64,000 nucleotides of DNA from Terriglobia bacterium (lineage in GTDB: Bacteria > Acidobacteriota > Terriglobia > 20CM-2-55-15), in NCBI GenBank assembly GCA_965198225.1, contig CBDAOY010000005.1:448001-512000 (forward strand). The letters are read 5' to 3'. The position numbers and the translations under genes were made by a program. The notes below the pieces were generated by a model, which did no database searches, was not told where the DNA came from, and saw nothing but the letters and a program-made list of their open reading frames with translations. Position 1 is the stretch's first letter; the number at the start of each line of letters is the position of its first letter. This document shows positions 53,464 to 56,324 of this stretch, one piece after another.

Positions 53464-53713
53464 ATCGCGGTAGGGATGCCGGTCACCCGGCACCCCCCGC
53501 AGATCCGCACGTGCGGAACTACCGCATACGGCTCCTACCTCGGATGGTTGCGGCGATACAACGTGCCGCACACCGAACAACCCCTGGGACACGGACAACG
53601 CCCGCTCTGAGTCGGGACCGTGTGGAATTGGAACGATGTTCTCCTTGGTCCACGCCCTTCCCTCCCCAACCTCCGCCGAGTACTCATCCTCTTTGTTCGG
53701 CTGGTTCACAGGT
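53464..53713 (-). mobile_element. 3' part (DIII-DVI) of an ORF-less group II intron, class E-like
   Basis: ACCTGTGAACCAGCCGAACAAAG..GGAGGGAAGGGCGTGGACCAAGGAGAAC (DIII); DV GAGCCGTATGCGGTAGTTCCGCACGTGCGGATC; DVI ending CCCTACCGCGAT. Confidence 0.82.
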
Positions 53714-55866
53714 GTAGAGTCGAAAGTGGTCGGGCTGGTCTGCCCTTCCACCGTCCGCTCAATCAAACGGCTCGTGCGGTTTTCCCGCAAGCCGCTTTCC
53801 TCAGTTGCTCCTCGCACGGAGTCACCGGTCCACGAGACCGGGAATCAGATGCGTCAGTCGGACCAGACCGAACTCTCGAATAAGTCGTCGCGTCGGATAA
53901 CGGCGCCACATCGTATTTCTCCACCGTTTCGCGAGAAACGAGTAGATACGGCGCTCAATCCAACGGTCCAGCTCGTTGAAGAGTCGGCGCACCCTCGCTT
54001 TGCGGTAATAGTTCCCCCAGCCCCGAATCACCGGGTTGAGCTGGTCGATGACTTCGCCCAGCTTCAGGGGAGCCTTACGGCGCGAGAGGTGTCGGATTTG
54101 CGTCCGGAACCTCTCGACCGACTTTTCCCGTGGAATGGCATACAGGTTATGGGGGTGCATTCCGCGACCACGCCTCTGTGTATCGGACAGACGCAGTCCT
54201 TTCCCTTGTTTCACCTTGTACCCCAAGAACTCAAAGCCTTGTCGAACGTGTACAATCCGCGTCTTCTTCGGATGAAGTCGAACTCCAAGTTCCTCCCAGA
54301 GAAACCGCTCTGCAAATGCGAGCGCCTGCCGGGCTTGGGCCGGTGTCCTACAAACCACCACAAAGTCGTCCGCCCAGCGTGTGAGTCTGTGACCTTGCCG
54401 GGTCATCGCACGGTCAAACGGCGTCAGAAAGATGTTCGACCACAACGGACTGGCCACTCCCCCTTGGGGAACTCCCGTCCGCGTGGGTTGCCAGCAACCT
54501 CCTTCCAATACCCCCGAACCCAGGATTGCCCGGATCAGCCCCAGAACTCGGCCGTCGCTGATCTCTTCGGCGATCAAGTCGAGAAGCTTCTCCTGGTCGA
54601 TCGTGTCAAAGAACTGCCGTAGGTCAGCATCAACCACCCAGAGGTCTCCGGCGCCTAGCTCTGCCCAGACTTTCCGCATCGCATCATGGGGTGAACGCCC
54701 CTTGCGATACCCGAATGAGCAGTCCAGAAACAACGGCTCGAAGATTGGTTCCATCCGCTGGACCAGCGCCTGCTGACAGACCCGATCCATTACGGCCGGT
54801 ATCCCCAGCTTTCGCATTCCTCCGTCGGACTTCCCGATCTCGACTCGCTTTACCGGCTTGGGTCGATAGGTGTCATCCCGCAGCTTTTGATGCAACAAGG
54901 CCAGATACTCCTCCTTGCGCCTTTCAAACTGCTCAATGGTCACTTCGTCGATGCCCGCGCTACCTCGGTTCCGTTTCACTTTCTCCCAGGCCAACTCCAG
55001 ATTCTTGCGACTAAACACCTTGTCGATCAGCGAGTGGACCTTTCGCTTCCTTCCCTGTCTGCTTTCCAATGTCGCTGTGTGGCGGCGGGCGGCGGCTTCA
55101 TCCGTACCGCGTTTGGGTCTTTCACTAAAGGAACTATCCAAGTTCACGATATCTCCGCGTTTCCCATCGCTCGCACATTCACAACTGAGTACGGGGACTT
55201 CCCCCTCCAGCGGGCCTTTTGAACCCACCAGCGCCGCTGCTCGAAGCAACGATCCGAAACCTTATGTTTGCCGTCTCGTTCCTGAGTACTATTCCCCGAT
55301 CCGATTCCTGGCACCGCGTCGGCCGGAATTTCGCTCTCGCTTATATCCGCACCTACCTTGCGGGGCTCTAGGTCGATGTTTGTCTTCTCGGTTGCCCGCC
55401 CTTTCGTCTGCGGGTGCCACATCATCTCGACCTTACCTTCCGCCCGGACGATACCAGGCCTCCCTGGGTCACTCGCGTCTCTTCCCCACCGTGTCGCCCG
55501 CACACACCTTGGTGCGATGGGGTGGAACCAATGCGCCTTCGCCCCCATAGTGCGGGCTCGACCATTCCCCATCTTTGGCCGACCGGTTCATCCTCGGGAT
55601 CGCTCCCGTCGATTACGACCCGGTGGTTCTCCTCATACCCTTCAGACCCCACCTCGCGGTGGGCGCCCTGCCCTCCAAAGTTTCCGTAGGTGGCTCCAGC
55701 TCTGCCTTGTCCGTGTCCGGCTTTCGCCTTCGTGCCCGTTTAGGCATTTGCCATACCTGCCTACACTCCGGCCAGTGAGGCATTACCCCCACTTGTTGGA
55801 TATCGACCCGTGGCCTCGGGCCGAGCGGGACTTTAACCCGCCGGAAACGCGTGCTGCCAGGCACGC
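53714..55866 (-). mobile_element. complete RT-encoding group II intron nested in intron sequence
   Basis: 5' GCGTGCCTGG (GUGYG variant) at 55866; DV AAGCGGCTTGCGGGAAAACCGCACGAGCCGTTT; DVI ending GACTCTAC at 53714. Confidence 0.85.
53822..55147 (-). CDS. ltrA: group II intron reverse transcriptase/maturase, no endonuclease domain, WADD active site
   Basis: [78 protein letters not shown] start after GGAG. Confidence 0.93.
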
Positions 55867-56324
55867 ATTACGGGTTCGTCCGCCCCCGCGCTGCGCTTCG
55901 GTACTCAGACCTTGAGAGGGCTTCTCTTGGCCGTCTCCCTTGACATCGCAGTCGCAGGTTCCTGCAGTTCCGCACAAGAGCCCGGACCGAACTCGCGCCA
56001 TCTCTATGCCGGACACCGCCCACCCAGTAAACAGGTTTCCGATGGGCTCATCCCGGGGCAACATCACCTCCCCGGTTCTGATGTCGTCTAAGGCACTTTC
56101 GACACTTGAATGATGGTTCACTGGTGTTCGCCTTCTCGATCCATACCTGACGCGTTTATCACGCCTTTTCCCTGACGCTCACGACGACGGATCGCCGCTC
56201 AGGGCGGTTTGAGATCAGCCCCTGCAGGCCGACCCCGGAGGGCCATAATCCTCCATCTCTCGCGCAGCTTCTCACGCCCGGGTTAACTCATTCTGAGCCT
56301 CCCTTTTGCGCTGCTGCAGCACAC
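55867..56324 (-). mobile_element. 5' part (DI, DII, start of DIII) of a class D (RmInt1-like) group II intron
   Basis: starts GTGTGCTGCAG; contains AAGCTGCG..GGCCCTCCGGG, GTGAACC, GCGGAACTGCAGGAACC..GATGTCAAGGGAGA..GAGTACCGA..GGGGCGGA, matching RmInt1 as recalled from memory. Confidence 0.8.

What the first reader, a model, noticed from the sequence alone, without database searches (positions are those of the whole stretch)
53464..56324. Nested group II intron whose outer 'host' is a chimera of two different intron classes
Seen: a full RT-encoding intron (55866-53714) is flanked on both sides by group II intron RNA. The 5' flank (56324-55867) begins GTGTG and resembles class D RmInt1 up to ..GGGGCGGACGAACCCGTAAT. 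The 3' flank (53713-53464) resumes at ACCTGTGAACCAGCCG.. with an ORF-less DIV and a DV/DVI ending CCCTACCGCGAT, which is class E-like; class D ends are like CTACTCACC. Both breaks fall at the equivalent DIII position, but the DIII arms (GAACCC versus GGGCGTGG) do not pair fully. Inference: two copies of the inner intron sat in two different host introns and recombined, leaving a hybrid D/E ORF-less outer intron and a genome rearrangement. That would be a route for shuffling ribozyme domains between intron classes.
Basis: partly seen in the sequence, partly recalled or inferred. Interest (0 to 1): 0.82.

Follow-up and report, generated by a model that had tools for sequence, protein, structure and literature searches.

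The report
Nested intron inside a hybrid intron
A mobile group II intron that specialises in jumping into other introns sits between the front half of one intron class and the back half of another, most likely because two of its copies recombined; the hybrid looks like a dead by-product.

Summary
On the minus strand, 55866-53714 is a complete RT/maturase-encoding group II intron ("I"). It lies between a 458-nt intron 5' part (56324-55867) and a 250-nt ORF-less intron 3' part (53713-53464).

The two flanks come from different intron families:
- The 5' flank is Rfam D1D4-2 type. Its 91%- and 89%-identical relatives in two other genera run on, uninterrupted, into an RmInt1-like (class D) ORF, and the 91% one shows the class D-type DV.
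- The 3' flank's relatives are ORF-less introns with D1D4-6-type 5' parts and a 5-nt DV loop, an E/F hallmark.
- The DIII basal stem covaries and pairs in 8 of 8 class-D-like and 5 of 5 "W-type" cognate introns. In the window only 4 of 7 pairs form.

Intron I homes into a conserved DIII loop (..RTAGT|A..) of at least four host ribozyme types and of itself. The genome holds about 20 copies.

A second hybrid at an I copy occurs twice in this genome, and its unmixed form exists in another genus. Unbalanced nests also point to recombination between I copies.

Still open: spanning reads, any genome rearrangement, and splicing. The hybrid is probably inactive. Nested arrays and intron-intron recombination are known, so this is a new variant.

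The parts
55867..56324 (-). 5' part (DI, DII, 5' strand of DIII) of a class-D-like (RmInt1-like, Rfam D1D4-2 type) group II intron. It starts GTGTG and ends ..GGACGAACCCGTAAT.
   Evidence: RF01999, 86.7 bits. 91% identical over 1-458 to G005 locus L010 and 89% over 1-456 to G020 locus L011; both run on uninterrupted into a class-D-like ORF, and L010 also shows the D-type DV. 66-67% identity over 1-456 to rhizobial plasmid introns.
56145..56254 (-). Rfam group-II-D1D4-2 match inside the 5' part.
   Evidence: Only 4 such matches exist in the whole genome.
55872..55878 (-). 5' arm of the DIII basal stem (CGAACCC), of the class-D-like family. It has no partner in the 3' flank.
   Evidence: Cognate class-D-like introns pair 6/6 in 8 of 8 cases.
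53714..55866 (-). Inner intron 'I', full length (2153 nt). It starts GCGTG and ends CTCTAC, and is inserted in the DIII internal loop of the outer element.
   Evidence: Copies with identical ends. Empty sites. 99.3% identical to C6:343788-345941.
53822..55249 (-). Longest ORF of the intron-encoded protein (RT plus maturase, no endonuclease domain found). The active-site box reads WADD.
   Evidence: RVT_1 E 2.8e-33 and GIIM E 1.5e-19. Translation.
55546..55551 (-). Candidate EBS1 (ACUAUG) in a hairpin loop of DI of the inner intron, complementary to the target CAUAGU.
   Evidence: This is an inference from complementarity with the conserved 5' junctions.
55287..55288 (-). The inner intron's own DIII site (..GGGGAATAGT|ACTCAGG..), empty here. 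Other copies of I are inserted at this point elsewhere in the genome.
   Evidence: Self-nested copies split at position 579/580.
53714..53799 (-). DV/DVI of the inner intron, with a 5-nt DV loop (GAAAA).
   Evidence: RF00029, 37.0 bits, below the gathering score of 40.
53464..53713 (-). 3' part (3' strand of DIII, ORF-less DIV, DV, DVI) of a 'W-type' ORF-less intron. It ends CCCTACCGCGAT.
   Evidence: 82-88% identical to C8:902144-902507, which follows another I copy. Relatives in 21 of 60 genomes. The uninterrupted relatives have D1D4-6-type 5' halves.
53650..53656 (-). 3' arm of the DIII basal stem (GGCGTGG), of the W-type family.
   Evidence: W-type cognates pair 7/7 in four introns and 6/7 in one; the window pairs 4/7.
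53464..53536 (-). DV/DVI of the outer 3' part. The DV has a 5-nt loop (UAGUU).
   Evidence: RF00029, 36.4 bits, below the gathering score. The loop is read.

Best explanation
Intron I is an 'intron of introns'. Its RNA recognises a short, conserved internal-loop sequence of domain III (..RUAGU|A..), probably through EBS1 (ACUAUG). It retrohomes into that loop in group II introns of several ribozyme types and in its own copies. This has produced about 20 copies in the genome, most of them one ORF-deleted derivative.

One full-length copy sat in DIII of a class-D-like (RmInt1-like) intron. Another sat in DIII of a W-type ORF-less intron (E/F-like). Homologous recombination between the two copies joined the class-D-like 5' half to the W-type 3' half across a single I copy. 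The simplest form of this is a deletion between direct repeats, which leaves no reciprocal product.

The inner intron may still splice and move. The outer hybrid most likely cannot fold, because its DIII basal stem is broken and a DI of a GNRA-loop class is paired with a DV that has a 5-nt loop. It would then be an inert relic in an intergenic stretch between an IS transposase gene and a Ser/Thr kinase gene.

Shown: the nesting, the hybrid composition, the broken stem, the target-site rule, and a second hybrid with its unmixed counterpart. Inferred: the recombination event itself, the EBS1 assignment, and the inactivity of the hybrid.
For: Hybrid composition:
- The 5' flank is RF01999 type. 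Its 91% and 89% relatives, L010 and L011, continue uninterrupted into a class-D-like ORF.
- L010 also shows the D-type DV (GAGA loop), and its IEP C-terminus (AHRQPGLFPHW) resembles the published class D motif (motif from PMC4615759).
- Relatives of the 3' flank (L024, L026, L032; C8b in this genome) have RF02005-type 5' halves or sequence similar to the C8b 5' half.

Structure:
- The DIII arms pair 6/6 in 8 of 8 class-D-like cognates, with 7 different arm pairs.
- They pair 7/7 in four W-type cognates and 6/7 in one; the window pairs 4/7.

Target rule:
- 14 of 17 loci have a 5' flank ending in TAGT, and the window ends in TAAT. All 17 3' flanks start with A.
- 8 of 8 junctions in other genomes end in [AG]TAGT.
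- Hosts belong to D1D4-2, D1D4-3 and D1D4-6 types.

Recombination at I copies:
- B5'-I-A3 hybrids occur at C4 and C5. Their 3' halves are 100% identical over 1645-1646 nt to those of host A.
- In G020 the same B5' (96.8%) with I keeps its own class-D-like 3' half, with arms pairing 6/6.
- Unbalanced nests exist. C4:150750-152235 lacks the 3' part of the outer I copy. C5:812868-814096 lacks its 5' part.

Assembly: no contig end lies in an intron half.

Precedents: recombination between intron copies in T. elongatus and M. acetivorans (passages of PMC2882425 and PMC4424553).
Against: - No reciprocal product (W-type 5' half + I + class-D-like 3' half) and neither parental half is in the assembly.
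- The inner copy shows no mosaic SNP pattern that would mark a crossover.
- The window's target reads GTAAT, which mismatches the proposed EBS1 at position -2. The uninterrupted relative L010 has the same base.
- The join is not confirmed by reads. Only short contigs from other organisms were available, and none bridges a junction in this arrangement.
- Synteny with the same-genus genomes could not show a rearrangement.
- 142 CATAGTA sites and 1063 relaxed sites exist in the genome. EBS1 pairing alone therefore does not explain why copies lie almost only in introns.
Confidence: 0.7

Rival explanations
1. Assembly mis-join. Two true loci, (class-D-like intron with I) and (W-type intron with I), were collapsed across the 2.15-kb near-identical I repeat.
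For: I copies are 99.3-99.9% identical over up to 2.1 kb. No run holding the whole stretch could be laid, and no contig bridges the junctions. The parental halves are missing from the assembly.
Against: - None of the 18 ends of the 9 contigs lies in I or in a host half, so the assembly holds no dangling partner.
- The B5'-I-A3 hybrid is assembled at two separate loci.
- The assembly resolves many 100%-identical 1.6-kb repeats, which suggests long reads; that is an inference.
Confidence: 0.12
2. An RT-mediated hybrid: aberrant retrohoming or template switching of intron I RNA that still carried foreign flanking intron sequence. No DNA recombination between two resident copies would be involved.
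For: I is a recently active retroelement. It is 97-98% identical across genera, and its ORF-less derivative is found in three other organisms' runs.
Against: - The 5' part is complete from its first base and lies in unique flanking DNA.
- The sequence after the 3' part is not the rest of a class-D-like DIII, as reverse splicing of an I-W3' lariat would require.
- Unbalanced nests are the expected products of DNA crossover.
Confidence: 0.08
3. The outer element is one natural intron lineage, not a hybrid, with an unusual 3' half and a degenerate DIII.
For: Both parts are group II intron RNA and both break at the same DIII position.
Against: - In none of the other genomes with hits (5 of 60 for the 5' part, 21 of 60 for the 3' part, both counts including this genome) are the two parts adjacent.
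- Close relatives of each part are joined to partners of the other type.
- An ORF-less class-D-like intron in G024 keeps a D-type GNRA DV.
- The DIII arms fail to pair.
Confidence: 0.03

Closest known systems
Nested group II intron arrays of Methanosarcina acetivorans (Dai & Zimmerly 2003; seen only as described in the review PMC4424553, section 'Twintrons', passages; the original paper is not held)
   Same: Repeated site-specific homing of introns into other group II introns. Several nesting levels. ORF-less copies alongside ORF-bearing ones. Copies removed by homologous recombination. No host gene is affected.
   Different: According to its title, homing there is into related intron ORFs. 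Here the target is a conserved DIII internal loop of the ribozyme, shared by hosts of at least three Rfam D1D4 types and by the intron itself. An outer intron built from two classes is not mentioned in the passages I read.
Thermosynechococcus elongatus twintrons and intron-intron recombination (Mohr et al. 2010, PMC2882425, passages)
   Same: ORF-less derivatives are mobilised in trans. [quoted passage not shown] Homologous recombination between two intron copies shuffled their flanking 'exons' (TeI4f and TeI4g).
   Different: There the insertion site is in DIV, between two start codons of one related family. Here the site is in DIII, and the shuffled 'exons' are halves of introns from different classes.
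RmInt1 and other class D (IIB3) introns of Sinorhizobium (PMC5894124 and PMC4615759, passages)
   Same: The 5' flank aligns over 1-456 at 66-67% identity with rhizobial plasmid introns. One of these, S. meliloti locus L033, scores 114.8 bits on RF01999. Cognate relatives have an En-less IEP with a class-D-like C-terminal motif and a GNRA DV loop.
   Different: The window retains only DI to the 5' strand of DIII. That the plasmid hits are RmInt1 itself is inferred from copy number and a length of about 1.88 kb, not from annotation.
Class E / class F introns (Nagy et al. 2013, PMC3753933, passages)
   Same: The 3' flank and its relatives have a 5-nt DV loop in place of the GNRA tetraloop. That paper names this as a peculiarity of IIE and IIF.
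   Different: E and F were not told apart. The DI features that define these classes cannot be examined in the window, because its DI comes from the other family.
Trichodesmium group II twintron (PMC4649490, passages)
   Same: A bacterial intron-in-intron in which the inner intron interrupts a ribozyme domain of the host intron.
   Different: There the inner intron lies in DI of a cognate host inside a protein gene, and sequential splicing was shown. Here the host is a hybrid in non-coding DNA, and splicing is untested.

Membership tests
Mobile group II intron (inner element 55866-53714) | Intron-encoded reverse transcriptase with a maturase (X) domain | tested here: met
   RVT_1 E 2.8e-33 and GIIM E 1.5e-19.
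Mobile group II intron (inner element 55866-53714) | Domain V/VI at the 3' end and a GUGYG-like 5' end | tested here: inconclusive
   RF00029 scores 37.0 bits, below the 40-bit gathering score (E 7.5e-05 for the 4-kb search). The 5' end is GCGUG, one change from the consensus; the consensus is recalled.
Mobile group II intron (inner element 55866-53714) | Precise insertion: identical ends in many copies and matching empty sites | tested here: met
   About 20 units with the same 5' end. 7 empty sites in one host family against 1 filled. Empty class-D-like and W-type sites in other genomes.
Twintron (intron nested in an intron) | The inner intron interrupts the RNA domains of an outer group II intron | tested here: met
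   Flanks carry RF01999 (5') and RF00029 (3'). The insertion point is the DIII internal loop, by comparison with uninterrupted relatives.
Twintron (intron nested in an intron) | The outer intron is one cognate ribozyme that can fold once the inner intron is removed | tested here: not met
   The 5' and 3' parts belong to different families. The DIII basal stem pairs 4/7, against 6-7/7 and 6/6 in cognates.
Class D (IIB3, RmInt1-like), for the 5' part | Ribozyme 5' region resembling that of RmInt1-type introns | tested here: met
   RF01999, 86.7 bits. Alignment over 1-456 to introns in 113 plasmid records, among 293 hit in all, 92 of them Sinorhizobium. The S. meliloti locus scores 114.8 bits on the same model.
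Class D (IIB3, RmInt1-like), for the 5' part | IEP without D/En domains and with the C-terminal class D motif LX3AX3PXLF[V/A]HW (PMC4615759) | tested here: inconclusive
   The window has lost this ORF. The 91% relative L010 reads VGGVAHRQPGLFPHW, and D0 in this genome reads LGRIARRDRQLFVLW. Each matches 6 of 8 fixed positions.
Class E or F, for the 3' part | 5-nt DV loop in place of the 4-nt GNRA loop (PMC3753933) | tested here: met
   GCGG-UAGUU-CCGC in the window. Relatives keep the 5-nt loop, and the stem covaries (GCGC/GCGC in L024).
Class E or F, for the 3' part | Alpha' motif at the tip of a DId3 stem-loop, an extra DId3 bulge, and IEP phylogeny | not tested
   The window's DI belongs to the other family. 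DI of the W-type relatives and the IEPs of ORF-bearing relatives (L025, L028, L030) were not analysed, and no named class references were at hand.

The most novel reading that the evidence does not exclude
Intron I is a pan-class hyperparasite of group II introns. It targets a DIII loop that nearly all of its hosts must keep. Its dispersed copies act as portable crossover points that swap ribozyme halves between classes. At least one such hybrid would remain able to splice or move: the class-D-like 5' half joined to the A-type 3' half with an intact IEP, present at two loci. That would make this a natural route to new intron lineages.
Probability: 0.1. Interest if true: 0.8.

Novelty: new variant of a known kind. 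Interest (0 to 1): 0.5.

Why it matters
Intron RNAs and their proteins are thought to co-evolve as units. The review literature treats classes as stable pairings of ribozyme and IEP.

This genome holds natural joins of a class-D-like 5' ribozyme half to E/F-like 3' halves, made at copies of a third intron. This shows that nested introns give homologous recombination a way to mix classes.

It also documents an intron whose niche is a conserved ribozyme loop of other introns. Copies are 97-100% identical across genera. Such a niche explains how these elements multiply without damaging host genes.

The hybrid in the window itself seems to be a dead end, so the practical weight is modest. It is a clear worked example, and it gives a testable system for twintron splicing order, DIII tolerance and hybrid ribozymes.

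Tried and rejected
- Reads. No run held more than 0.60 of the sampled words. The four runs laid are short contigs from other organisms. None bridges 56324, 55867/55866, 53714/53713 or 53464 in this arrangement, so the assembly could not be checked. They do show the ORF-deleted form of I (a joint at 53814>55072) in three runs. One contig (run X15) leaves the window sequence exactly at 55867.
- Synteny. The upstream flank matches only multi-copy IS-like repeats in G003. The kinase gene matches only paralogues. Nothing could be concluded about a rearrangement.
- Mosaic SNPs in the inner copy. There is no crossover signature. The whole copy is of the full-length lineage.
- Reciprocal product. None found. 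D-type DV occurs twice, both times directly upstream of B5' halves.
- A W-like DV/DVI at C8:905407-905537 is an orphan fragment of about 130 nt. A 120-nt fragment, 98% identical to the 5' flank, lies at C9:700897-701016 and is also an orphan.
- My first reading of the class-D-like DIII as a small hairpin (GACCC/GGGTC) was dropped. The long-range arm pairing is the one that covaries in 8 of 8 introns.
- EBS2/IBS2. The bases just upstream of IBS1 vary among hosts, and I found no convincing partner. What gives I its specificity beyond 6-7 nt stays unexplained.
- Naming the 3' part class E through S.me.I4 on Sinorhizobium plasmids failed. Hits exist at about 83% identity, but nothing in the records names the intron.
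- Dai & Zimmerly 2003 and Simon et al. 2008 are not held.
- Literature searches listed no paper on an inter-class hybrid outer intron or on DIII-targeted homing. This covers only the held library, and I saw listings and passages only. Supplements were not seen.
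Full report
WHAT IS THERE

Read on the minus strand, the window holds three abutting pieces.

The 5' piece, 56324-55867 (458 nt):
- It starts GTGTG.
- It contains the only Rfam match of the window at gathering level: group-II-D1D4-2 (RF01999), 86.7 bits, at 56254-56145.

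The inner piece, 55866-53714 (2153 nt), is a complete group II intron:
- Its ORF 55249-53822 has RVT_1 (E 2.8e-33) and GIIM (E 1.5e-19).
- Its 3' end matches the DV/DVI model RF00029 with 37.0 bits, just under the 40-bit gathering score.

The 3' piece, 53713-53464 (250 nt):
- It has a second DV/DVI (36.4 bits, 53536-53464).
- It has no ORF and ends CCCTACCGCGAT.

Around the element lie an IS-type DDE transposase gene (57061-58383, + strand) and a Ser/Thr kinase-TPR gene (53304-51019, - strand). The element is therefore in non-coding DNA.

THE INNER INTRON AND ITS HABIT

The window lies in contig C5 of a 6.4-Mb, 9-contig genome. BLAST of the inner intron ("I") against that genome gave the following:
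- Two more ORF-bearing copies: C6:343788-345941 (99.3%) and C6:408309-409881 (positions 580-2153, 99.9%).
- About 18 further units. Nearly all carry the same deletion (positions 1-795 joined to 2047-2153).
- Several units are inserted into one another at position 579/580.

At 17 loci I compared the flanks:
- 14 of the 5' flanks end in TAGT. The window's ends in TAAT. Two differ.
- All 17 of the 3' flanks start with A.

The flanks are themselves group II intron RNA of several kinds:
- Rfam D1D4-6 type: host A at six loci, C8b and C6d.
- D1D4-2 type: host B at two loci, and the window.
- D1D4-3 type: host K, and the host at C6a/C9a.
- The intron itself.

Seven uninterrupted host-K copies carry the empty site GGTCATAGT|AGCCCGG, against one filled copy.

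In other genomes, 8 of 8 examined 5' junctions also end in [AG]TAGT. I is 97-98% identical in three genomes of two other genera, yet it is missing from the 3 same-genus genomes searched. This points to horizontal spread.

A hairpin loop in DI of I reads ACUAUG (55551-55546), the complement of CAUAGU. I take this to be EBS1; that is an inference. The genome has 142 CATAGTA sites and 1063 relaxed sites. Something beyond this pairing must therefore confine I to introns, and I could not identify it.

WHERE IN THE HOST

Uninterrupted relatives show the site.

In class-D-like introns the layout is:
..CGGA-[arm]-YGUARU|AGYGAWGAA-[hairpin]-GGAGCRAAGG-[arm']..
DIV and the ORF follow directly.

In W-type introns the layout is:
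..GA-[arm]-AUAGU|ACCURUGAA...GGGAAG-[arm']-ACCAAGGAG..

This is the internal loop of the stem-loop just before DIV.

The arms covary and pair:
- 6/6 in 8 of 8 class-D-like cognate introns, with 7 different arm pairs.
- 7/7 in four W-type cognates and 6/7 in one.

THE OUTER ELEMENT IS A HYBRID

The 5' piece:
- Its closest relatives are G005:C4 (L010, 91% over 1-458) and G020:C44 (L011, 89% over 1-456).
- Both run straight on, with no I, into sequence similar to the ORF of D0, the one uninterrupted D1D4-2-type intron of this genome (C4, about 148400-150281).
- L010 also has D0-type DV, with a GAGA tetraloop. L011 aligns to D0 only as far as position 955, and its intron end was not seen.
- The IEP C-termini of L010 and D0 resemble the published class D motif at 6 of 8 fixed positions each (motif from a passage of PMC4615759).
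- The 5' piece aligns over 1-456 at 66-67% identity with introns on Rhizobium and Sinorhizobium plasmids.
- One of these, from S. meliloti, scores 114.8 bits on RF01999. RmInt1 and RmInt2 are the multi-copy class D introns of that species (PMC5894124, passages).

The 3' piece:
- It is 82-88% identical to C8:902144-902507. That stretch follows another I copy, and its 5' side is D1D4-6 type (166 bits) with perfectly paired arms CCGCGUC/GACGCGG.
- The uninterrupted relatives L024, L026 and L032 show sequence similar to the C8b 5' half directly upstream; L027 has it too, but about 580 nt further upstream. Rfam confirms the D1D4-6 type for L024. Their DIV is ORF-less.
- The DV loop of this family has 5 nt (UAGUU in the window). 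A passage of PMC3753933 gives this as a peculiarity of classes E and F.

Arrangement in other genomes:
- The 5' kind was found in 5 of 60 genomes and the 3' kind in 21 of 60, both counts including this genome.
- In no genome other than this one are the two kinds adjacent.

In the window the arms are CGAACCC and GGCGUGG, which pair 4/7 and never more than two in a row. The outer element is therefore a class-D-like 5' half joined to an E/F-like 3' half, and its DIII cannot close.

HOW IT AROSE

The join is exactly one I copy. The same genome offers parallel cases.
- Host B (D1D4-2 type 5' half, at C4 and C5) is followed, after I, by a 3' half that is 100% identical over 1645-1646 nt to that of the D1D4-6-type host A, including its 448-aa IEP.
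- In G020 the same B 5' half (96.8%), with I at the same site, keeps its own class-D-like 3' half, and the arms pair 6/6.
- C4:150750-152235 holds I(1-579) plus a whole ORF-less I, but not the rest of the outer I. C5:812868-814096 holds the converse. These are the products expected from crossovers between non-equivalent I copies.

I therefore favour homologous recombination between a full-length I in a class-D-like host and one in a W-type host. The likeliest form is a deletion between direct repeats. That would explain why neither the reciprocal product nor the parental halves are in the assembly.

Recombination between intron copies is documented for T. elongatus (exon shuffling between TeI4f and TeI4g; PMC2882425, passage). 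It is invoked for the nested arrays of M. acetivorans (PMC4424553, passage).

WHAT SPEAKS AGAINST THIS, AND WHAT IS OPEN

- The inner copy shows no mosaic pattern.
- The window's site GUAAU mismatches the proposed EBS1 at -2, although the empty relative L010 has the same base.
- I could not check the assembly. The runs found hold at most 0.60 of the sampled words, and they are short contigs of other organisms.
- No contig end lies in an intron half. This argues weakly against a mis-join.
- Synteny with the same-genus genomes was uninformative.
- Class 'E' is not separated from 'F'.
- Inactivity of the hybrid is inferred from the broken stem and from the mismatch between a GNRA-type class and a 5-nt DV loop. 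It was not tested.

COMPARISON AND VERDICT

Intron-in-intron homing, ORF-less derivatives moved in trans, multi-level nests and recombination between copies are all known from archaea and cyanobacteria.

Two things seem new in my limited literature check (listings and passages only; supplements not seen; the 2003 M. acetivorans paper is not held):
- The target is a conserved DIII loop, used across at least three host ribozyme types and in the intron itself.
- Outer introns are assembled from two classes at copies of the inner intron.

The idea that this shuffles working ribozyme domains remains speculation. I rate it a new variant of a known kind, of moderate interest.

Noticed in passing
G000 C6:839000-844000 (L006); also C5:59900-64800 (L005): Four-level nest. 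A 'family M' intron (IEP about 33% identical to that of I) carries host A inserted 3 nt after its DV (..GGTTCGAT|GAGCG..). Host A carries I in its DIII, and that I carries a second I at position 579/580. Host A starts with GAGCG.
   Followed up: partly
G000, all six host-A copies; G020:C24 (L044/L049): No empty host-A site exists in this genome (0 found). The A[I[I]] composite is 99.5-100% identical between two genera. This suggests that the composite moves as a unit, or was transferred recently.
   Followed up: partly
window 55072-53814 (the part missing in the ORF-less form): The ORF-deleted derivative of I (1257 nt skipped, 8 other letters at the joint) is present at high contig depth in runs of three other organisms (X1, X15, X18).
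   Followed up: partly
G000 C4:153772-153883 and three other loci, directly after the host-A 3' end: A mini-element of about 110 nt that starts GTGCGAC and ends GACTCTAC, the same last 8 nt as intron I. It follows the 3' end of host A in 4 of 6 copies. It may be an extremely reduced intron derivative.
   Followed up: no
G000 C4:148400-150749 (L002 901-3250); G020:C9 (L036): Intron D0 is inserted in another RT gene right after the YADD codons. Host B starts immediately after the last base of D0 (..CTACTCGAC|GTGTGCC..). The same tandem order (D-type DVI end, then B) is seen in G020. This suggests repeated homing at one 5' exon junction.
   Followed up: partly
window 54370-54360, approximately (inside the IEP ORF): The RT active-site box of the I protein reads WADD rather than the usual YADD or FADD.
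   Followed up: no
G000 C9:700897-701016 (L004): An orphan 120-nt fragment, 98% identical to positions 153-272 of the window's 5' flank. It lies in an AT-rich stretch next to a tRNA gene.
   Followed up: partly
G005:C4 (L010 3294-3457); G005:C11 (L023): In G005 an A-type intron is inserted just after DV of the class-D-like relative of the window's 5' flank. Another A-type copy sits in the DV/DVI region of a W-type intron. Nesting is therefore common in this bacterial family.
   Followed up: no
window 57061-58383 (+) and 59170-60322: A DDE transposase gene (DDE_Tnp_1, DUF772) lies directly upstream. A further stretch matches 8 copies at 84% identity in the same-genus genome G003. The element sits in an IS-rich region.
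   Followed up: no
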